In this document: piece after piece, positions 26,057-34,526 of the stretch
How positions within the stretch are numbered: position 1 is the stretch's first letter
Layout: each line of letters opens with the position of its first letter
Assembly (NCBI RefSeq): GCF_003790525.1
Contig: NZ_CP033635.1
Length of the DNA stretch: 64,000 nt
Reading direction: 5' to 3' (one strand)
Source of the DNA: Escherichia coli
GTDB lineage: Bacteria; Pseudomonadota; Gammaproteobacteria; Enterobacterales; Enterobacteriaceae
Translations under genes and position numbers: made by a program
The notes under the pieces: generated by a model
Database searches by the model: none
The model's input: the letters and a program-made list of their open reading frames with translations, nothing else
What the model was told of the DNA's origin: nothing

Positions 26057-27250
26057 ATGCCACTTACTGTTCGACAAATTGAGTCGGCTAAACCTGCTGA
26101 CAAGGATTACAAACTTTCTGACGGTCAGGGCCTTTATCTTCTTGTCAAAAAATCCGGTGCCCGTTACTGGAATCTGAAGTACCGGTTTGCCGGTAAGGAA
26201 AAGAAACTGGTGATTGGTGTCTATCCTGACATATCACTGGCTCAGGCTCGTCAGAAGCGGGATGAAGCACGTAAACTTCTGGCTGAAGGTAAAGATCCGT
26301 CGTATGAAAAACAGGCGCGAAAACTTGCCATCAGGGAAAGTATGGCCTGCACATTTCGCACCATTGCAGAGGAGCTGCTTACTCATATGGCACGTCGATG
26401 GACAACAGGTTACCAGGCAGACCAGCGTGCAAGACTTGAAAATCATGTTTTCCCTGCTCTTGGAAACCGTCCTGTGACCGGGATCCGCCCCATGGAAATA
26501 CTGAACGTCCTGAGGACTATAGAAGAACAGGGAAAACTTGAAGCACTGCGTAAAACACGCCAGCTCTGTGCGCAGGTTTTTGATTATGCCATAGCAACAG
26601 GGCGTGCAACCGTTAATCCGGCATCGACACTCAGCGGGGTACTGCTTCCTCCTGAAAAACAACAGCGCAGGACGCTTTCTGAAGAACAGATAGGAGCTTT
26701 CATGTATCAGATAACGGCTTCCGGAAATCTGATGTCGCTGGCAACGCGGATGCTGGTTCTGACCGCTGTTCGCACCGGAGAACTGCGACTGGCAACCTGG
26801 GACGAAATTAATTTCACGGAGGCCCTGTGGGTTATTCCGAAAGAAAGAATGAAAATGCGACGACCGCACGTTGTGCCGCTTTCACGGCAGGTACTGGCGT
26901 TACTGGAGGAGATAAAAACACGCACTGAATCGCGTAATTCCGCCTTTATTATTCCTGGTGCATTCAGAAAAGATCTCCCGCGAAACCGCAAGTGTATCAA
27001 TGAATTCCTTGAGCAGTCAGGCTGGCATGCCCTGACAACAGCCCACGGATTTCGTCATACCTTCAGCACCATTCTCCATGACCATGATTTCAGCTCAGCC
27101 TGGATTGAACTCCAGCTTGCTCATGTTGATAAAAACGTCATGCGTGGCACTTATAACCATGCGCAATATCTGGATGGACGTCGTGAAATGATGCAGTGGT
27201 ACGCTGATTACATTGATTCACTTATGGAGAAAAACGTAAAAACGAAATAA
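26057..27250 (+). CDS. P4-type tyrosine integrase
   Basis: 397 aa with a DUF4102-type N-terminus (MPLTVRQIESAKPADKDYKLSDGQGLYLLVKKSGARYWNLKYRF). The C-terminal catalytic region carries HGFRHTF ... LAH ... Y. Confidence 0.93.
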   Translation: MPLTVRQIESAKPADKDYKLSDGQGLYLLVKKSGARYWNLKYRFAGKEKKLVIGVYPDISLAQARQKRDEARKLLAEGKDPSYEKQARKLAIRESMACTFRTIAEELLTHMARRWTTGYQADQRARLENHVFPALGNRPVTGIRPMEILNVLRTIEEQGKLEALRKTRQLCAQVFDYAIATGRATVNPASTLSGVLLPPEKQQRRTLSEEQIGAFMYQITASGNLMSLATRMLVLTAVRTGELRLATWDEINFTEALWVIPKERMKMRRPHVVPLSRQVLALLEEIKTRTESRNSAFIIPGAFRKDLPRNRKCINEFLEQSGWHALTTAHGFRHTFSTILHDHDFSSAWIELQLAHVDKNVMRGTYNHAQYLDGRREMMQWYADYIDSLMEKNVKTK

Positions 27251-27258
27251 GCCATCAC

Positions 27259-27285
27259 CCCCACCAACCACAGCGGTTGGTGGGG
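27259..27285 (+). terminator. hairpin after the integrase gene
   Basis: CCCCACCAACC-acagc-GGTTGGTGGGG, 8 nt after the stop. The T-run begins only ~20 nt later. Confidence 0.5.
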
Positions 27286-27616
27286 AGTTAACTACCATTT
27301 GTATTTTTTGATTTCTGCCTTCAGGCGACATACTCAATATCATCTGATGAGCGAAGATACCCCACCCAAAATGATGGTAGCTTCACATCGTCATTTTCAT
27401 ATAGCAGCACACTGCTGTTCTGACCTCGTAGTCACATTTCTACAGCATCATTACCAGTCAGGCTGATTGCTCCTCATTGAAAGAATGAATCCATGACTAA
27501 CACAAAAATAGCTCTGGCCGGCTGTTACCGGTGTGAGAAGAAACTTGATACAAACTGCCGTGGGCTTTATTCTTGGAGAACTATAAGTTTTTCCAGATTT
27601 ACAACAGATTCAGCAT

Positions 27617-28672
27617 ATGAACAGATTACGCTTTGAAGTGAAGAATAATCAGGGCTGCTTCATTTTCCCGGAAACCTGGTATGAATCACTACTGGAGAAG
27701 TTTAACGAACTGCTTGACTCCTTTGACGAGGATGAGATCAGCGACAGGTCTTATATCAATGCCCTGAAGCGTATCACACAACAGGAACCGGATTTTATTG
27801 ATGCGTATGCATACATGGCATATGCCTTTCTGGAGCAGGAGACACCGCGAAAAGCGCTGAATATTGCACTCAAAGGACTGGCGGCAGGTAACCGACTGAT
27901 ACCTGAAGGTTTCACCGGTGAAATCAGCTGGTTACATCCGGAAAACAGGCCCTTTCTGAATGCCCTTTACGCCGCCATCCTCGCGAATGTGCACCTGCAG
28001 CATCATCAGAATGCTGTCATGCTCATTGATAAAATTCTGGCTTACAATCCTTCAGATAATCCGGGAGCACGCTGGTTACTGGGACCGGAACTGTTGCGTT
28101 CTGGTGACCATGAACGGGCTCTCTGTGTTCTCCGGCAGTATGCAGATGAATTTTCGCCTTACTGGTATGAGCTTGGTCTTCTGCATTTTATTAATGGAGA
28201 GCCGGTGAAGGCAGCGACAGCTTTCCGGCGCGGCTTTGCAGAAAATACTTATATCGCGGAGATTCTATGCGGAAATCTGTACCCCTTCCCGCTTGCCCTT
28301 TGGCATGATTATTCATCTGAGCCGGATACAGCCAGACAGTATTATGAAACATTCTGCCCGTTATGGGGAAAATATCCCGAGGCATTGTTATTTGTTAACT
28401 GGCTCTACAACCAGTCTGGCGTACTGAGCGAACGGGCTGAATTCATGAAGTGTGCTGAAATGCTGTTAAGGGCAGATGATCAGGAAATGAATGAAAGCAT
28501 TTTTCAGCAGCGGGAGCTCTTACGGGAAAGAATTGATGATCGTCTTTCTGAGGAAATCGTTCAGAAATTACGGACATTGAACGGGGAGGAGATCTGGCCC
28601 TGGATGTTACCGTTTTCCGGAGAACTGATCCCCGCAGACATTTGCTTTCAGAACAGTCTGAAATATCAGTAA
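27617..28672 (+). CDS. TPR-like helical-repeat protein, function unknown
   Basis: 351-aa ORF with no TM segment or signal peptide. It has repeated helix-pair segments with TPR-like spacing (e.g. NAVMLIDKILAYNPSDNPGARWLLGPELLRSGDHERAL). The family was not identified. Confidence 0.55.
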   Translation: MNRLRFEVKNNQGCFIFPETWYESLLEKFNELLDSFDEDEISDRSYINALKRITQQEPDFIDAYAYMAYAFLEQETPRKALNIALKGLAAGNRLIPEGFTGEISWLHPENRPFLNALYAAILANVHLQHHQNAVMLIDKILAYNPSDNPGARWLLGPELLRSGDHERALCVLRQYADEFSPYWYELGLLHFINGEPVKAATAFRRGFAENTYIAEILCGNLYPFPLALWHDYSSEPDTARQYYETFCPLWGKYPEALLFVNWLYNQSGVLSERAEFMKCAEMLLRADDQEMNESIFQQRELLRERIDDRLSEEIVQKLRTLNGEEIWPWMLPFSGELIPADICFQNSLKYQ

Positions 28673-28773
28673 TATCTGCACCAGGATGCCATTCCGGGGT
28701 CAGTAAGGATCTTCCCCCTGACCTGGACAAATGTAATGAAACTCAGCTAAGCCCCAGAAGAGCAGGCATATAG

Positions 28774-29154
28774 TCAACCGAGGTCGCTGCAATAAACCAT
28801 CGCGCTTTGATTCCCCCGATGAAGAGGTGACTGGCAGCGACTTCCTGAGCGACGACTTGTCTTTCCATCAATAGCGACTACCTGAGAAGATAAAACAGGA
28901 AGGACTTCTGAACCCCATCGCCGGAACGCAGCTTCAAACTGCTCAGGGACAATCAGCCCAAAAAGACGGGCGAATGTATCATGGGAAGGTATGCCATTTT
29001 TTAGAGGTAAAAAACTGGCGGAGCCACTCAATGCGTTGCCTGCCCAGAGCTCAATTTCCTGAAAATTATCCGCACCGACCAGCACACCACAAACGGCAAT
29101 GGTCAATGTATCAACCAGAGTGTGCCTGACTTGTCCAGGGCTGACAGGGATCAT
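28774..29154 (-). pseudogene. ISAs1-family (H-repeat) transposase, N-terminal fragment
   Basis: VRHTLVDTLTIAVCGVLVGADNFQEIELWAGN...GIPSHDTFARLF...VVAIDGKTSRRS matches the N-terminal associated domain of ISAs1/YhhI-type transposases. The DDE domain is missing. Confidence 0.75.
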
Positions 29155-29281
29155 GTATTGAGATGAATATATCGGTAACCGGCGGTATATGAGACATAAT
29201 ATATCCCTTTGATAAAAAAGGTTATGTTGACATATTTATCCTGCATGTCACGTATCATTATTTTTCATGCGATTGCCCTGC

Positions 29282-29400
29282 GGTTACCACCGCTCACAGT
29301 TAGTAAAGGACTGGGCGGAAGTGGTCAATATAAGGTTGCATTACCTTCCTCCTTATAGTCCGAATCTGAATCCGATTGAACGGATGTGGAAAAATGCTGC
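29282..29400 (+). pseudogene. IS630-family transposase, C-terminal fragment
   Basis: Frame reads ...QLVKDWAEVVNIRLHYLPPYSPNLNPIERMWKNAA*. This is the conserved LPPYSP-LNPIE motif around the catalytic E of IS630/Tc1 transposases. Confidence 0.75.
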
Positions 29401-29716
29401 TTAATAGTATTGATGTTCATCTTTATGCCTCTAAAAGAAAGCATAAGATCACAACAGGCTCAGCAGGTCAATCACTCTATTTTTGTTCAAAAAACGTTCA
29501 TGATCTTGCCCTACCCAATTTTGTGGGTAAGGATATGCGATGAAATTCTCCTTGCAGTTTAATACAACCTTTCCATATTAAGCGGCAGTATTACCTGCCA
29601 GTCAGGATAATTTTACACCTAATGTTAGTTAAAATTTGTGCAACTTGAAACAATAATACTACAGTATCCACTATCGTCAGCACACCTCAAATACTATTTT
29701 TTATGAAACGTTTATT

Positions 29717-30373
29717 TTATAAATCATTATCAATCAAACTCAGGAATGTATCTCTGGCATAATTACCAACGATGTTGGTTGTTATCGCATCAAGACTACC
29801 ACCAACGATTCCTCCTACAACAGGAACAAACTTTGACATATTAATAACACCAGTAGCACCTGTTTTTGTAAGCAGTCTGAAACCGACTGCCTTATTTATC
29901 TTTACAATAATATCTTTACTAATACATCTAATTGCATTTGTTGTCAACTTTTGTCCTATCTGAATTCCTGCTTCCTTCAAAATATCTTTCGCAGCATTAC
30001 CTACAAGACAGGTATAAACAATAGTTCTGACTTTATCATCACGAATATCCTGGCCACACATGATCGCAATAGATGCAACCATCCTGACCTGAATGAAAAG
30101 GACACTTGAAATATTGGTCGGTATAGTTACTGGTAATGTAATAATTCCTCCAAGACCAGTAAGAAAACCTGATGTGGCTGACTTGGTATTTTGCCATCGA
30201 ATAAGGCTATTTATCTGTTCTTTTAAACTACTACCCGTTTTCAGATAACTTTCCGCAAGACTATGTGCCGTATCAATTCCTGGGATACCAATACCATCGA
30301 TGGATTTTTCATAAGCGTAATCCAGAAATTTTATGATTTTTGATGGCGTGAGAATATTTTCATTATCAGTCAT
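29717..30373 (-). CDS. EcsC-family protein
   Basis: ATG at 30373 (MTDNENIL...). It shows EcsC-like features: SLIRWQNTKSATSGFLTGLGGIITLPVTIPTNISSVLFIQVRMVASIA and a Gly-rich C-terminal segment VPVVGGIVGGSLDA. AT-rich. Confidence 0.65.
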   Translation of the reverse strand: MTDNENILTPSKIIKFLDYAYEKSIDGIGIPGIDTAHSLAESYLKTGSSLKEQINSLIRWQNTKSATSGFLTGLGGIITLPVTIPTNISSVLFIQVRMVASIAIMCGQDIRDDKVRTIVYTCLVGNAAKDILKEAGIQIGQKLTTNAIRCISKDIIVKINKAVGFRLLTKTGATGVINMSKFVPVVGGIVGGSLDAITTNIVGNYARDTFLSLIDNDL

Positions 30374-30464
30374 ACAACAAAACACCTAAAAATTTCACGA
30401 TCACTTTCTAAAAACTATCTCCGACAGATATCGGAACACCAGTATTATCACCAATTAAATAATA

Positions 30465-30656
30465 TTATTTTTTGAGAAACAATTGTATTGCTCTGGCAAA
30501 AAGATTTTCTGTAATTGTAGCCTTACGTTTATAAATAACTTTCTCTCCACACACAGGACATTCATAAAATCCTGCTGTACAATTCATATGAATAATAGTT
30601 TTACTCCATTGACAATTTGTACAGATAAATGTAATGGGTGGACAGGGAAAAATCAT
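30465..30656 (-). CDS. small zinc-ribbon protein (63 aa)
   Basis: From ATG 30656: MIFPCPPITFICTNCQWSKTIIHMNCTAGFYECPVCGEKV..., with two CxxC knuckles. The track ORF begins 10 codons earlier at a GTG. It lies 91 nt upstream of the EcsC gene. Confidence 0.5.
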   Translation of the reverse strand: MIFPCPPITFICTNCQWSKTIIHMNCTAGFYECPVCGEKVIYKRKATITENLFARAIQLFLKK

Positions 30657-30746
30657 TGGCTCACACTCTCGATATATAAATAACACTTACAGGGACATGT
30701 AAATATTTTCGATTTATCCCTATAAAAATAACTTCACCTCCAGTAA

Positions 30747-31100
30747 TCAATTCAGTTCTGTAAGACGATCGATTATTTTACGTAGTTCATCTGCAGAATC
30801 ACATGTATCCAGTGAAATTTTTATTCTAAAATTCTTTAACCAATTAGCAGCCTCCTGATCTTCACGCCATAAACGCTCCCCGCTCCAATCCCCCCTAAAA
30901 CATAGAGCAGCAATAGCCAATCCTCTGCATGCTGGCCGATTATGCTCAGATGTATTATTTTGGTTATAAAAATCGTTAATTCTTTCTACCGGAGATGATT
31001 TTATTTTATCCCACACATTGAAATTAGCTTTTTTCATCGTTTCAGCAGCAGCATTAGAAGCAAGCTTACCGAATCCCATTATAGCATCCCAAAATCCCAT
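30747..31100 (-). CDS. hypothetical protein (117 aa)
   Basis: ORF preceded by AAGGTGA. No recognisable family. AT-rich, and on the same strand as its neighbours. Confidence 0.5.
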   Translation of the reverse strand: MGFWDAIMGFGKLASNAAAETMKKANFNVWDKIKSSPVERINDFYNQNNTSEHNRPACRGLAIAALCFRGDWSGERLWREDQEAANWLKNFRIKISLDTCDSADELRKIIDRLTELN

Positions 31101-31136
31101 ATATCACCTTATGCTATATAATATCTAAATGAGTAT

Positions 31137-31226
31137 CTAATCTTTTAGAACCACTATTTGGACAATGGTTTTACGCCACTTACATCTGGTACAAATGAAT
31201 GTAACCGGGGGCTGAGGAAGTGCCAT
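31137..31226 (-). pseudogene. truncated paralog of the zinc-ribbon ORF (29 codons)
   Basis: MALPQPPVTFICTRCKWRKTIVQIVVLKD* aligns with the first ~23 codons of the 30465-30656 product (MIFPCPPITFICTNCQWSKTIIH). The second CxxC knuckle is absent. Confidence 0.4.
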
Positions 31227-31312
31227 GAAGGTACGTGTCTGTTGTATTAAACTATCAAATCAGACCACACGCTGCGATTTTGAATTTAACAACGTGTAGT
31301 CAGATATTACAT

Positions 31313-32062
31313 TCAGAAGCTGTATGTAGCACCTAACGTAAATTCGTTACTTCTGACATCAACAGAGGATTTATATGTATCCTGCCCGTCTTCATACGTC
31401 AGGGTTGAATCACCTGCATCAAGATAGCGATAAGCAAGGTCAAGACTGAAATCCGGGGTGACCTCATATTTCACGCCAACACCAAGGCTCCATGCGAAAT
31501 TGTTATCATATCCCGAGTAATGTAATGAAGAAGCATCACTTACTTCACCTGATTTATTCCAGGAGGTATCGGTGTATGTTGCCTTATGATGTACCCGCGC
31601 ATAACCCAGTCCGGCTGATACCCACGGAGTGAAAGCACTGCTGTTTCTGAAATCATAATACGTGTTCACCATCAGGGTATTCACGCTGAGCCTGTTTTGT
31701 GTGTCTTCCTTCCAACCATTATCTCCAGACGGGGACTCCCATGTATCCAGTGGATAGCGGGAATTCGCAGAGCCGCGACCATAGAATTCAACTTCCGTGC
31801 GTACAGGGACATTGTAGTGCTGATAAAAGTCGTATCCCACCGCAAGGCCAGCACCAAAAACCGTATCGCTCTTGTCACCGCCTTTATACTTATAAACATC
31901 ATCCCCAAAGTCCTGACTAAAGCGCTGATTATCCTGAGTGATAACAGATGCACCAGCCTTACCCGTGATATAGAAACCGGTTTTATCCGCATCTGCCAGC
32001 GTCAGCGTTGAAAACGTACCGGTAAGCGCAGCTACCGCAGTGAGTGCCAGTAACTTTTTCAC
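31313..32062 (-). CDS. outer-membrane beta-barrel protein (OmpA-like/Opa-type, possibly Tia/Hek-like)
   Basis: 249 aa with a signal peptide MKKLLALTAVAALTGTFSTLTLA. It has alternating amphipathic strands, aromatic girdles and a C-terminal ...TLGATYSF. Confidence 0.7.
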   Translation of the reverse strand: MKKLLALTAVAALTGTFSTLTLADADKTGFYITGKAGASVITQDNQRFSQDFGDDVYKYKGGDKSDTVFGAGLAVGYDFYQHYNVPVRTEVEFYGRGSANSRYPLDTWESPSGDNGWKEDTQNRLSVNTLMVNTYYDFRNSSAFTPWVSAGLGYARVHHKATYTDTSWNKSGEVSDASSLHYSGYDNNFAWSLGVGVKYEVTPDFSLDLAYRYLDAGDSTLTYEDGQDTYKSSVDVRSNEFTLGATYSF

Positions 32063-32377
32063 AATCCACCTCTCCTGATGTTTCCTTCAGACATATGAAT
32101 TTGTCCAATTTTAAGACGGATTTCTCATTGGTAAAATGAATTGTACAGATCGTATCGATCGACAAAGTCGATCGTTAAGCAGAAAAAAGATTTATCGTCA
32201 GCGAAGATTTGTTTATGGAAATGACTGAAAAAACGGGTTAAAAAACAGACTGTTCTGTCCATGTGAAACGGGAAGTGACGGGATAAGACGTTATGTGAGG
32301 ATTGTTACGGGAAATGCTGTTTTACGTTGTTAAAATGTAACTCCGCAATGAAACTATCCCCTGTGGAGGTCCTGTAA

Positions 32378-32731
32378 ATGAACAAAGCACTCTCTTCCAT
32401 TCTGCTCATCTTCGGTATCTGTGCATCATCACTGGCCGCTGAAAAAAACAGAACCGTCAGTTTTCCACGATGTGAAGTACAGGAAGCATCAGCTGTTGCA
32501 GCCAGCGTCAAACGGGACTATCTCCAGAAACAGGTATTTCAGTGGAAAGATGATCAGGAAATTCTCGGTCAGCAGCGTCCCGTTGTCTGGGTGAATCTTC
32601 GTGAGCCGGTAAATAAAGGTGATAATGTCATCACAGTGCATCTCACTGCCCGTGGAAAGAAAGCAGATATTCAGTATCGTGTGCGCGTTGACTGTAAGAA
32701 CGGAAGTGCTACCTGGCAACGCCAGGGATGA
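32378..32731 (+). CDS. YebF-family secreted protein (island paralog)
   Basis: 117 aa with a signal peptide. [39 protein letters not shown]...[21 protein letters not shown] parallels YebF ([22 protein letters not shown]...ADIHYQVSVDCKAG). Confidence 0.7.
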   Translation: [117 protein letters not shown]

Positions 32732-32777
32732 ACGGGTGAAGTTGAATACAGAGCCCGAACGAACGGGCTCTCCATAC

Positions 32778-33350
32778 TCATCGTATATAACTGAATGCGG
32801 TGATGACGTGTTTCACCCCCGCCACGCGACTGGCGATATCAGCAGCAGCCTGTCCTTCCTTCTCTGTAACTCTCCCCATAAGAAAGACTTCACCATTCTC
32901 CGTCAGTACCTTTACATCTGACAGTTTCACCCTGCTGCTCTTCAGTAACTGTGCCCGGATTTTTGTGGTCAGCCACGCATCAGTAGCTGTTTTATCAGCC
33001 CGAAGTGGTTTTCCCGTCCTTATTTCATTCCATACCTGCACAGTCCCCTCAACACCATCTGCAATCTGACGGGCTTTTTCACCTGCACTACGGTCTGGTG
33101 CCTGCCCTGTCAGCAGTACAGTGCCCTGGTATGCTGTGACGATGATTCGCGCATCCCCCCTGAGTTGTGAGTCCTTCGACAGCGCACGGCTGACCCTTGC
33201 TTCCAGAATTTCATCATCAATCTGCGTTCCCGCACTTCGGGGGTCCACTGACACTTTAGTACCCACAGCAGCCGTACCGACCAGCGCAGCGGCAACACAA
33301 CCCTGTAACAGCAACAGAGTCGAAAGAAAAGGCAGAAACCAGCGTTGCAT
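32778..33350 (-). CDS. dual-BON-domain lipoprotein, DolP(YraP)/OsmY-like
   Basis: ATG 33350 is preceded by GGAGG. Lipobox LLLQGC. Two BON-type segments (...IIVTAYQGTVLLTGQAP... and ...VKVLTENGEVFLMGRVT...). Confidence 0.75.
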   Translation of the reverse strand: MQRWFLPFLSTLLLLQGCVAAALVGTAAVGTKVSVDPRSAGTQIDDEILEARVSRALSKDSQLRGDARIIVTAYQGTVLLTGQAPDRSAGEKARQIADGVEGTVQVWNEIRTGKPLRADKTATDAWLTTKIRAQLLKSSRVKLSDVKVLTENGEVFLMGRVTEKEGQAAADIASRVAGVKHVITAFSYIR

Positions 33351-33673
33351 GGCAGAATCCTCCACGGTCTGATATCCGGAATTTCGCAGTATGACGGCAG
33401 GAATCAGCCATCACAGATACCACAAGCTTCAGAGAGTAACGAAAACGTTAAAGGAAACGGAAGTGCCTGAATGTAAAGAACGGGGAACCACACAGGGTAT
33501 GGACAAACATAATAACAATAACAGGATGAAAATATTGAATAAAAAATAAAAACCGAGACATCATCATTTGCAGTAATAGCCACCTCCTTACCGAAAAGTG
33601 TGAGTTGCCGGACATTTTTTAAACGCATGATAAGGTCTGATGATACAGTCACCCTGCAACCAGGAGGTACATC

Positions 33674-33967
33674 ATGCGTATACGTGTTTTTGGTTACCGG
33701 CACTGCCCTTCAGTCCATCGCATCATGCATCACGCAACGCGAATCCCCGATGAAATGGAACCGGATGTTGTGTTTATTGATGTCGCGAAGCACAGTGTGA
33801 CGCTGCGGGATATGGCTGACCGTGCAGGCTGCCCGGTGGATAACTTCCCGTGTGTGTTTGTTGATGATGTCTATCTGGAGCCCCTCCACCAGAACCGGGC
33901 AAACCGCACTTTACATACTGCTGAATATTTATTACCGGATATGGACAATCGCTTTCATTCGGGATAA
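33674..33967 (+). CDS. hypothetical protein, weak glutaredoxin-like pattern
   Basis: 97 aa, GGAGG 7 nt upstream. IRVFGYRHCPSV...FPCVFVDDVYL resembles the beta-alpha-beta start and the VPxIFI strand of Grx/NrdH, but with a single Cys. The assignment is tentative. Confidence 0.4.
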   Translation: MRIRVFGYRHCPSVHRIMHHATRIPDEMEPDVVFIDVAKHSVTLRDMADRAGCPVDNFPCVFVDDVYLEPLHQNRANRTLHTAEYLLPDMDNRFHSG

Positions 33968-34091: not shown

Positions 34092-34526
34092 TTATCTCAG
34101 TGATGTCCTGGTTAATACAGAATACTGCCCCGGACCAAGTAACATAATGGCAATCCCCCCCATGAAATACAGCATTTCATTTTCAAGCCCCCACGCCCCT
34201 ACTTCAGTCAGTGTGAAAAACTTCCCTGTTCCGACCAGAAGCGTGGCAACAATCAGTGTCAGCGCATAAATCAGAGCAGCAGGTCTGGTAAATATCCCAA
34301 GAATGATAAGTACCGGAGCCACGATTTCACCAATATACACACCATAGGCAATAAATCCTGGCAAACCAGCATCCTGCAACATTGATATAATCCAGTTGAC
34401 ACCGTGCTCTATTTTGGCCACACCATGGAACAGCATCAATATACCAAATGTCAGTCTCAGCAACAGAAGACCTGTATCCGGGTAGTCTGTCAGTCTGGTA
34501 AAGAACATATTTATTCTTGCTGGCAT
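34092..34526 (-). CDS. DoxX-family inner-membrane protein
   Basis: 144 aa with four TM segments. GLLLLRLTFGILMLFHGVAK is typical of DoxX/YphA. An alternative start at MFFTRL (34508) is possible. Confidence 0.75.
   Translation of the reverse strand: MPARINMFFTRLTDYPDTGLLLLRLTFGILMLFHGVAKIEHGVNWIISMLQDAGLPGFIAYGVYIGEIVAPVLIILGIFTRPAALIYALTLIVATLLVGTGKFFTLTEVGAWGLENEMLYFMGGIAIMLLGPGQYSVLTRTSLR

What the first reader, a model, noticed from the sequence alone, without database searches (positions are those of the whole stretch)
29717..32062. Same-strand AT-rich gene string: outer-membrane barrel, Zn-ribbon remnant, 117-aa unknown, Zn-ribbon, EcsC-family protein
Seen: five consecutive minus-strand ORFs with short spacers. 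They are 31313-32062 (OMP), 31137-31226 (Zn-ribbon remnant), 30747-31100 (unknown), 30465-30656 (Zn ribbon) and 29717-30373 (EcsC-family). All are AT-rich, and IS remnants lie on the EcsC side. Established: EcsC-family proteins are poorly characterised outside the Bacillus ecsABC context. Inference: the arrangement looks like one transcription unit pairing a surface-exposed barrel with cytoplasmic or membrane-associated proteins of unknown role. I am not aware of a described system with this composition.
Basis: partly seen in the sequence, partly recalled or inferred. Interest (0 to 1): 0.58.

Follow-up and report, generated by a model that had tools for sequence, protein, structure and literature searches.

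The report
Adhesin gene beside candidate phage-defence cassette
The five-gene string is not one system: it is a known-type E. coli adhesin gene, the stump of a deleted operon's first gene, and a separate three-gene cassette whose last gene is an untested candidate anti-phage gene.

Summary
All five minus-strand ORFs exist at the stated coordinates. The four intact ones evolve as real genes (dN/dS 0.11-0.42). They are not one system.

The 249-aa barrel is a Tia/Hek/Hra-family adhesin/invasin (76% identical to Tia). A conserved hairpin follows its stop codon. The 29-aa "remnant" is the 5' stump of a Zn-ribbon gene. In a related locus (L173) the intact gene heads a leoC-leoB-leoA (Eleos-type dynamin) operon, and homology with the window stops at 31156. 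So the string is a deletion scar in a tia/leoABC-type island.

The real unit is 117-aa -> Zn-ribbon -> EcsC-like, conserved in three diverged E. coli lineages; two of them have lost the barrel. The EcsC-like protein matches PADLOC's single-gene candidate PDC-S29 (E 6e-86). It has no conserved neighbour in 78 diverse genomes and is the only annotated CDS on a 2.1-kb plasmid. I found no functional test of it.

The Zn-ribbon ORF belongs to a large, uncurated, mostly uncalled family. It sits directly upstream of variable effector-like genes (Leo GTPases, Sir2, HEPN-like, EcsC), including unannotated between tia and leoC.

The parts
31313..32062 (-). Tia/Hek/Hra-family outer-membrane beta-barrel adhesin/invasin gene (249 aa); probably its own transcription unit
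   Evidence: Pfam OMP_b-brl E 5e-19. 76% aa identity to the PGAP-named Tia of L089 and 75% to that of L083. dN/dS 0.15-0.16. The exact sequence is on at least 1000 contigs, and UniRef names it 'Adhesin'.
31253..31311 (-). Stem-loop directly after the OMP stop codon (13-bp core stem at 31263-31301), followed by a U-rich tract; putative intrinsic terminator or mRNA-end hairpin
   Evidence: Folds at -21.8 kcal/mol, z -2.4. AR_0085 keeps the stem while a 9-nt deletion shrinks the loop from 13 to 4 nt. Hairpins with different stem sequences follow tia in L089 (15 bp, z -3.5) and L083 (10 bp, z -1.4).
31137..31226 (-). 5' stump (pseudogene) of a Zn-ribbon gene that originally headed a leoC-leoB-leoA (Eleos-type) operon; similarity to the intact gene ends at 31156
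   Evidence: L173 has OMP -> intact Zn-ribbon gene (88% identical over the 24 shared residues) -> leoC/leoB/leoA. blastn homology with the window runs 31998->31156 and stops there. AR_0085 has an extra stop codon in the stump.
30747..31100 (-). 117-aa all-helical (TPR-like) protein of a very small family; first gene of the conserved three-gene cassette
30465..30656 (-). 63-aa Zn-ribbon protein (CxxC...CxxC; N-terminal motif PPxTFxCxxCxWxKT), not annotated by PGAP; member of a large uncurated family
   Evidence: Family HMM hits. No curated family reaches its cut-off. dN/dS 0.24-0.42, and a divergence hot spot relative to its flanking genes. The exact sequence is on 803 contigs.
29717..30373 (-). 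EcsC-family protein (218 aa) of the PADLOC PDC-S29 subfamily, a candidate single-gene anti-phage effector
   Evidence: Pfam EcsC E 1.9e-11. PADLOC PDC-S29 E 6.4e-86 over the full length. About 60% identity across phyla. All-helical model, pTM 0.65. One hydrophobic stretch at about residues 76-107.
26057..29400 (.). Island context: P4-type tyrosine integrase (26057-27250, +), TPR protein (27617-28672, +), ISAs1 fragment (28774-29154, -) and another transposase fragment (about 29282-29392)
   Evidence: The same integrase-TPR backbone carries different cargo in L083, L084 and L107.

Best explanation
The string is a mosaic inside a mobile, integrase-borne island related to the ETEC tia/leoABC island.

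(1) The barrel gene is a Tia/Hek/Hra-family adhesin/invasin. It is probably expressed on its own and ends in its own hairpin.

(2) The 29-aa ORF is what remains of a small Zn-ribbon gene that once led a leoC-leoB-leoA (Eleos-type dynamin-like, anti-phage) operon. A deletion starting at 31155 removed the rest of that gene and the operon. This joined the adhesin gene to the next module.

(3) That module, 117-aa -> Zn-ribbon -> EcsC-like, is the only real multi-gene unit here. Its last gene belongs to the PDC-S29 subfamily, a horizontally mobile, stand-alone gene that PADLOC lists as a single-gene phage-defence candidate.

Inferred mechanism (not shown): the helical EcsC-like protein, with its glycine-rich hydrophobic segment, associates with the inner membrane. 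It acts as the effector, blocking phage infection or killing the infected cell by disturbing the membrane. The upstream Zn-ribbon protein and the TPR-like 117-aa protein are lineage-specific accessory parts (regulator, sensor or adaptor) and are not obligate partners.
For: Shown:
- The OMP is 76% identical to Tia, and a conserved hairpin follows its stop codon.
- L173 carries OMP, an intact Zn-ribbon gene and leoCBA, with window homology ending at 31156. PADLOC Leo models confirm leoC/B/A in L089 and leoC in L173.
- tia-(Zn-ribbon)-leoC-leoB is present in 62 complete E. coli genomes.
- The window has no leo genes.
- The cassette 117-ZnR-EcsC is conserved at 68-90% aa identity for the 117-aa and EcsC genes in three E. 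coli lineages, with purifying selection on all three genes.
- A decayed OMP 5' fragment lies upstream of the 117-aa gene in the other two lineages.
- The EcsC-like protein matches PDC-S29 at E 6e-86.
- It has no conserved neighbour in 78 loci apart from WYL regulators in 6.
- It is on 209 plasmids and is the only annotated CDS on a 2131-bp plasmid.

Defence context:
- WYL/BrxR-like regulators, HEPN-like, SIR2, ScoMcrA-HNH and Leo genes lie nearby.
- EcsC-like genes are listed as putative effectors in operons with the jukA sensor gene (bioRxiv 10.1101/2022.09.17.508391).
- LeoA+LeoBC is the Eleos anti-phage system.
Against: - No functional test of PDC-S29 or this EcsC subfamily was found. The one paper naming it only lists a PADLOC hit.
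- The EcsC model is only moderately confident (pLDDT 60) and has no structural or sequence relative in the PDB, so the membrane-effector mechanism is inference.
- The hairpin after the OMP has a 13-nt loop and an imperfect U-tract, so read-through into the cassette cannot be excluded.
- In all three E. coli lineages the cassette descends from a locus with the OMP upstream, so a functional OMP link in the ancestor is not excluded.
- The roles of the 117-aa and Zn-ribbon proteins are unknown.
Confidence: 0.6

Rival explanations
1. One reading: all five ORFs form one operon-encoded envelope system that couples a surface barrel to cytoplasmic or membrane proteins.
For: All are on one strand with short spacers. 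OMP remnants lie upstream of the cassette in all three E. coli lineages. In Luteimonas-like soil contigs an unrelated OMP barrel also precedes 46aa-ZnR-WYL-EcsC.
Against: A conserved hairpin follows the OMP stop codon. The junction is a deletion scar. The OMP has decayed twice while the cassette persisted. OMP and 117-aa are each absent from all 80 distant EcsC loci. Tia-family loci without leo genes lack the Zn-ribbon gene. GC content steps from 0.47 to 0.31-0.38.
Confidence: 0.05
2. The three genes 117-aa, Zn-ribbon and EcsC-like form an obligate three-component system in E. coli. On this reading PADLOC's single-gene model misses two small partners.
For: Order, strand and spacing are conserved in three lineages diverged to 68-90% aa identity for the 117-aa and EcsC genes, with purifying selection on all three genes. 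PGAP does not annotate the Zn-ribbon ORF, so single-gene models could overlook it.
Against: EcsC homologs at about 60% identity lack both partners in 77 of 80 loci, and the gene is the only annotated CDS on a 2.1-kb plasmid. The three lineages may reflect common descent and not independent assembly. Distant 117-aa relatives sit next to a kinase-AAA gene, not EcsC. Most Zn-ribbon family members have no EcsC nearby (2 of 120 loci).
Confidence: 0.2
3. The cassette is not anti-phage at all. On this reading the EcsC-like protein is a membrane or stress protein, or a plasmid/island maintenance protein, that merely hitch-hikes in variable regions.
For: No experimental defence data were found. The Pfam EcsC family is named after a Bacillus gene of unclear function. 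The gene is frequent on Klebsiella plasmids next to Ter-type stress genes.
Against: It is a PADLOC candidate. WYL regulators, HEPN-like, Leo, SIR2 and restriction-type genes lie close by. EcsC-like genes pair with jukA. The patchy cross-phylum distribution at 60% identity is typical of defence genes.
Confidence: 0.2

Closest known systems
Tia / Hek / Hra1 / Hra2 / Hes heat-resistant agglutinin family of E. coli outer-membrane adhesins/invasins
   Same: 249-aa beta-barrel, 76% identical to Tia over the full length. It sits in an integrase-borne island, and the gene order OMP -> small Zn-ribbon ORF matches the tia locus. Family membership as listed in PMC5539235.
   Different: PGAP does not name it Tia. 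It is a distinct allele/paralog, and whether it equals the published Hra2 could not be checked because that paper is not held. Adhesion and invasion were not tested.
ETEC tia locus / Eleos (LeoA + LeoBC) dynamin-like anti-phage system
   Same: The island backbone and the OMP-Zn-ribbon start of the locus are homologous. The relative L173 continues into leoC-leoB-leoA. The locus is described in PMC4159319, and Eleos in bioRxiv 10.1101/2022.12.12.520048.
   Different: The window has lost the leo genes; only the stump of the leading Zn-ribbon gene remains. The published five-gene description of the tia locus does not mention the Zn-ribbon ORF.
PADLOC PDC-S29 (single-gene phage-defence candidate; EcsC-family subfamily)
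   Same: Full-length HMM match, 285 bits. It behaves as a stand-alone, horizontally mobile gene with variable neighbours.
   Different: In E. coli it carries two conserved upstream small genes that are not part of the PADLOC model. Defence is a prediction only.
Bacillus subtilis EcsC of the ecsABC operon
   Same: Passes the Pfam EcsC (PF12787) cut-off.
   Different: No adjacent EcsA/EcsB ABC transporter here. An ABC ATPase cluster lies within 3 kb in only 3 of 78 loci. It matches only the C-terminal two-thirds of the Pfam model.
Juk (JukA sensor + variable effector) jumbo-phage immunity
   Same: EcsC-like (PF12787) genes are reported in putative operons with jukA as possible effectors. The logic of a conserved small upstream gene plus a variable downstream effector resembles what is seen for the Zn-ribbon family.
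   Different: No jukA/YaaW homolog was recognised in the cassette. The Zn-ribbon and 117-aa proteins match no curated family, and nothing here was tested functionally.

Membership tests
Tia/Hek/Hra adhesin family | About 25-kDa outer-membrane beta-barrel with high full-length identity to a named member | tested here: met
   76% aa identity to the PGAP-named Tia of L089 and 75% to that of L083; Pfam OMP_b-brl/Opacity/OmpA_membrane hits.
Tia/Hek/Hra adhesin family | Mediates adhesion, invasion or autoaggregation | not testable with these tools
   Needs cell-adhesion and invasion assays.
Pfam EcsC (PF12787) | Score above the curated gathering threshold | tested here: met
   44.5 bits against a cut-off of 30.4.
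Bacillus ecsABC system | EcsC encoded with the EcsA/EcsB ABC transporter | tested here: not met
   No ABC transporter genes are adjacent in the window. An ABC ATPase cluster occurs in 3 of 78 homologous loci.
PADLOC PDC-S29 | Full-length match to the PDC-S29 HMM | tested here: met
   E 6.4e-86, residues 10-216 against model positions 10-214 of 220.
PADLOC PDC-S29 | Functions as a single gene (no obligate partner) | tested here: inconclusive
   No conserved neighbour in 78 loci, and the only annotated CDS on a 2.1-kb plasmid. In E. coli, however, it is always preceded by the 117-aa and Zn-ribbon genes.
PADLOC PDC-S29 | Confers phage resistance | not testable with these tools
   No experimental report found.
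Eleos (LeoA + LeoBC) | Presence of Leo dynamin-like GTPase genes | tested here: not met
   tblastn of LeoA/B/C against the window gives no hit. Only the stump of the upstream Zn-ribbon gene remains.
   Hairpin after the OMP. OMP lost in two lineages. OMP and 117-aa each 0 of 80 in distant EcsC loci.

The most novel reading that the evidence does not exclude
The small Zn-ribbon protein (motif PPxTFxCxxCxWxKT) is a shared, so far unrecognised upstream component (sensor, regulator or adaptor) of interchangeable anti-phage effector modules. These include Eleos-type Leo GTPases (also in the classic ETEC tia-leoCBA locus, where it is unannotated), PDC-S29 EcsC, Sir2, HEPN-like and DUF726 hydrolases. 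In Pseudomonas-like genomes it comes with a conserved upstream set: a divergent WYL regulator, a TM/coiled-coil protein and an ADP-ribosylglycohydrolase. On this reading the window holds one intact copy (leading EcsC) and the stump of a second (formerly leading Eleos).
Probability: 0.3. Interest if true: 0.7.

Novelty: new variant of a known kind. Interest (0 to 1): 0.42.

Why it matters
For this locus, the result removes a false lead. There is no new barrel-coupled envelope system here, only a deletion scar in a tia/leo-type island.

Three leads survive.
1. A candidate defence gene (PDC-S29) comes in E. coli with two conserved, unannotated or unnamed small partners. This gives a compact cassette that is easy to test.
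2. An overlooked small Zn-ribbon gene sits between tia and leoC in a locus that has been studied since the 1990s. The same family precedes Leo-type and other effector-like genes in many bacteria. If it takes part in Eleos or other systems, current two-gene models would be incomplete.
3. The locus shows how defence modules are swapped or deleted next to a virulence adhesin gene in mobile islands of poultry-associated E. coli.

Tried and rejected
- I first concluded that the Zn-ribbon family was very rare (20 clusters) and almost always next to EcsC. A degenerate-motif DNA scan of metagenome contigs showed this was ascertainment bias. About 115 of 120 hits are true family members and only 2 have EcsC, so I dropped the idea of a specific ZnR-EcsC pair.
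- I also dropped the idea that the Zn-ribbon gene is the OMP's partner. Tia-family loci without leo genes lack it.
- PHROGs and NCBIfam gave no useful hits for the small proteins.
- Rfam found nothing relevant in 29000-33000.
- The simple promoter/terminator scan was uninformative and missed the OMP hairpin. The hairpins in the 117/ZnR and ZnR/EcsC spacers are not significant (z -1.3 and -0.5).
- The Hra2 paper is not held, so identity to Hra2 is untested.
- The 243-aa EcsC form that overlaps the Zn-ribbon stop in L093 is a gene-caller extension. The conserved ATG lies 75 nt further downstream.
- The phage collection holds only two distant Listeria records with an EcsC homolog.
Full report
OBSERVATION. 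The window is E. coli chromosome. All five minus-strand ORFs are present where stated: OMP 31313-32062 (249 aa), a 29-aa ORF 31137-31226, a 117-aa ORF 30747-31100, a Zn-ribbon ORF 30465-30656 (63 aa) and an EcsC-family ORF 29717-30373 (218 aa). Spacers are 86, 36, 90 and 91 nt. GC content is 0.31-0.38 for the last three genes and 0.42 for the remnant, but 0.47 for the OMP against 0.50 for the window, so 'all AT-rich' holds only for the distal genes. IS fragments flank the EcsC side. PGAP annotates only the OMP, the 117-aa protein and EcsC; both Zn-ribbon ORFs are unannotated. Comparison of three E. coli lineages gives dN/dS of 0.18-0.23 (117-aa), 0.24-0.42 (Zn-ribbon), 0.11-0.15 (EcsC) and 0.15-0.16 (OMP), so the four intact ORFs are genuine genes.

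CONTEXT. The block lies in an island that begins with a P4-type tyrosine integrase (26057-27250) and a TPR protein. The whole block is present in 16 of 5426 complete E. coli genomes, mostly from poultry. It is inserted next to lptG in one group and next to ulaD in another, so the island is mobile. The exact OMP and Zn-ribbon proteins occur on at least 1000 and on 803 contigs of public assemblies. The same integrase-TPR backbone carries different cargo in other strains.

THE BARREL. The OMP passes Pfam OMP_b-brl. It is 76% identical to the protein PGAP names Tia in L089 and 75% identical to that of L083. The Hra family (Hra1, Hra2, Tia, Hek, Hes) consists of adhesins/invasins that are often encoded in pathogenicity islands (PMC5539235). 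Immediately after the stop codon the transcript can form a 13-bp stem (-21.8 kcal/mol, z -2.4) followed by a U-rich tract. In AR_0085 a 9-nt deletion shortens only the loop and keeps the stem. After tia in L089 and L083, hairpins with different stem sequences occupy the same place. I read this as the OMP's own terminator or 3'-end hairpin; read-through is not excluded.

THE REMNANT IS A DELETION SCAR. In 62 complete E. coli genomes the order is tia, an unannotated 64-aa Zn-ribbon ORF, then leoC, leoB (and leoA). PADLOC's LeoC, LeoB and LeoA models confirm the identities. The published description of the tia locus lists five genes and does not mention this ORF (PMC4159319). LeoA+LeoBC is the Eleos anti-phage system (bioRxiv 10.1101/2022.12.12.520048). 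A metagenomic contig, L173, carries an OMP 83% identical to the window's. It is followed by an intact Zn-ribbon gene whose first 24 residues are 88% identical to the window's remnant, and then by leoC, leoB and leoA. Nucleotide homology with the window runs from 31998 to 31156 and stops there, inside the remnant. The window contains no leo genes. So the 29-aa ORF is the 5' stump of a Zn-ribbon gene that led an Eleos-type operon, and a deletion fused it to the next module. AR_0085 has gained a further stop codon in the stump.

THE CASSETTE. Two other diverged E. coli lineages carry 117-aa -> Zn-ribbon -> EcsC in the same order and orientation. One is the PapRG-04-4 type, found in 8 complete genomes and one plasmid. 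The other is a third type that sits directly beside an integrase. Both lack an intact OMP, but each keeps a decayed 5' fragment of the OMP gene just upstream of the 117-aa gene. The L093 match is solid (80% over 91 nt) and the L084 match is weak (71% over 83 nt). The linkage is therefore ancestral, and the barrel has been lost twice while the cassette persisted. In the PapRG type the cassette itself is decaying in some strains: EcsC is split in strain 1303, the 117-aa gene is interrupted by ISEc8 in RM8082, and the Zn-ribbon has Cys-to-Tyr and frameshift variants. In PapRG-04-4 the same island also carries tia-ZnR-leoCBA about 10 kb away. This suggests an ancestral layout of OMP-ZnR-leoCBA ... 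117-ZnR-EcsC, of which the window is a deletion derivative.

THE EcsC-LIKE GENE. It passes Pfam EcsC and matches PADLOC PDC-S29 at E 6e-86 over its full length. From my own knowledge, 'PDC-S' denotes a single-gene phage-defence candidate. The only paper naming PDC-S29 merely lists a PADLOC hit. Homologs of about 208 aa keep roughly 60% identity across Gamma- and Betaproteobacteria, Bacilli, Bacteroidales and others. In 80 loci from different species the OMP and the 117-aa gene never occur, and a Zn-ribbon relative occurs in three. The only specific recurrent neighbour is a WYL-domain regulator, in 6 of 78 loci. The gene is on 209 plasmids (180 of them Klebsiella) and is the only annotated CDS on the 2131-bp E. 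coli plasmid pE6474.4, which has neither small partner. EcsC-like genes are also reported as putative effectors in operons with the jumbo-phage sensor gene jukA. The AlphaFold model is all-helical (pTM 0.65, pLDDT 60) with one hydrophobic, glycine-rich stretch. It has no relative in the PDB by fold or by profile. A membrane-acting effector role is my inference.

THE SMALL PARTNERS. The 117-aa family is tiny: 10 clusters in the word-indexed search and 14 representatives in the exhaustive search. Its distant members share an MGFWD N-terminus, and one sits beside a kinase-AAA gene, not beside EcsC. Its model is confident (pLDDT 82) and resembles TPR-like helical repeats only generically.

The Zn-ribbon family at first looked rare and tied to EcsC. 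About 115 are true members, and only two, both of E. coli type, have EcsC. No curated family covers it. In 110 of these loci the upstream side is relatively conserved. It holds a same-strand TM/coiled-coil protein (at least 23 loci) and/or an ADP-ribosylglycohydrolase ending 1-30 nt before the Zn-ribbon start (14 loci). A divergent WYL regulator is present in 37 loci.

The gene immediately downstream is on the same strand in 65 of 101 loci, and it is variable. It can be HEPN-like, Sir2, a DUF726 hydrolase, or P-loop GTPases that match PADLOC LeoA/LeoBC. L175 is a further independent example of Zn-ribbon followed by Leo-type GTPases. Zn-ribbon relatedness follows host group and not effector type. 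Within E. coli the gene is a divergence hot spot: 84% aa identity between the window and AR_0085 against 99-100% for its flanking genes, with a 4-7-fold higher dS. Two readings remain open. It may be a shared upstream component of interchangeable effector modules, or it may be a conserved gene bordering a cargo hotspot.

VERDICT. The locus combines a known-type adhesin gene, the stump of an Eleos-leading Zn-ribbon gene, and a conserved three-gene cassette whose terminal gene is an untested single-gene defence candidate. The most interesting by-product is the overlooked Zn-ribbon family upstream of Eleos-type and other effector-like genes.

Noticed in passing
L089 6001-6195 (+); equivalent position in 62 complete E. 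coli genomes: An unannotated 64-aa Zn-ribbon ORF lies between tia and leoC in the classic ETEC tia/leoABC locus. The published five-gene description of that locus does not mention it.
   Followed up: partly
Metagenome loci L108-L227 (e.g. L122, L134, L152, L208): The Zn-ribbon family is large and mostly uncalled. A typical neighbourhood is: divergent WYL regulator, small TM/coiled-coil protein (motif ENRELRSALRAE), ADP-ribosylglycohydrolase ending 1-30 nt before the Zn-ribbon gene, then a variable gene (Sir2, HEPN-like with an RNQLMHGG motif, DUF726 hydrolase, Leo-like GTPase).
   Followed up: partly
window 30465-30656 compared with L002 9953-10141: The Zn-ribbon gene is a divergence hot spot between otherwise 96% identical islands: 84% aa identity and dS 0.31, against 99-100% aa identity and dS 0.04-0.08 for the flanking 117-aa and EcsC genes. 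This suggests allele replacement or diversifying selection.
   Followed up: partly
L104 (plasmid pE6474.4, NZ_CP116985.1, 2131 bp): A 2.1-kb E. coli plasmid carries an EcsC/PDC-S29 homolog (63% identity) as its only annotated CDS. A closely matching EcsC cluster (P0009, also 63% identical to the window's protein) is recorded on 13 contigs, the longest 2212 bp.
   Followed up: partly
window 32378-32731 (+) and 32778-33365 (-); also 33674-33967 (+) and 34092-34526 (-): Next to the OMP gene the island carries genes that PGAP names yebF and dolP. From my own knowledge of K-12, these lie away from their usual chromosomal positions, so they are probably extra diverged copies. A GrxA-like ORF and a DoxX gene follow.
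   Followed up: no
window 26057-27250 (+); L002, L093, L094: The P4-type integrase island has no tRNA gene anywhere in the window. It is found next to different core genes in different strains (lptG, ulaD, a DUF554/ornithine decarboxylase region, dsbD/cutA), so the insertion sites are varied and apparently not tRNA genes.
   Followed up: no
L001 15105-16165 compared with L002 14977-18426: Downstream in the island, sitABCD is truncated after sitA in the CM2-type island (99.9% identical to the window) but intact in AR_0085.
   Followed up: no
L085 5980-6636; L086 6996-9826; proteins P0135, P0148-P0150: The PapRG-type cassette is decaying in some strains: EcsC is split into two ORFs (strain 1303), the 117-aa gene is interrupted by ISEc8 (RM8082), and the Zn-ribbon has Cys-to-Tyr or frameshift variants.
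   Followed up: partly
L032 2937-3587 (-), L047 1408-2079 (+), cluster C5 in metagenome loci: A 216-224-aa protein with an RNQxMHGG (HEPN-like) motif and no Pfam, NCBIfam or PADLOC hit recurs next to WYL regulators, EcsC and the Zn-ribbon gene in Pseudomonas- and Stenotrophomonas-like genomes.
   Followed up: no
L107 5446-8602; L089 1-4566: Other tia-type islands carry SIR2-family, type I restriction-modification, SIR2_2 and ScoMcrA-HNH genes close to tia. These adhesin islands therefore double as defence islands.
   Followed up: no
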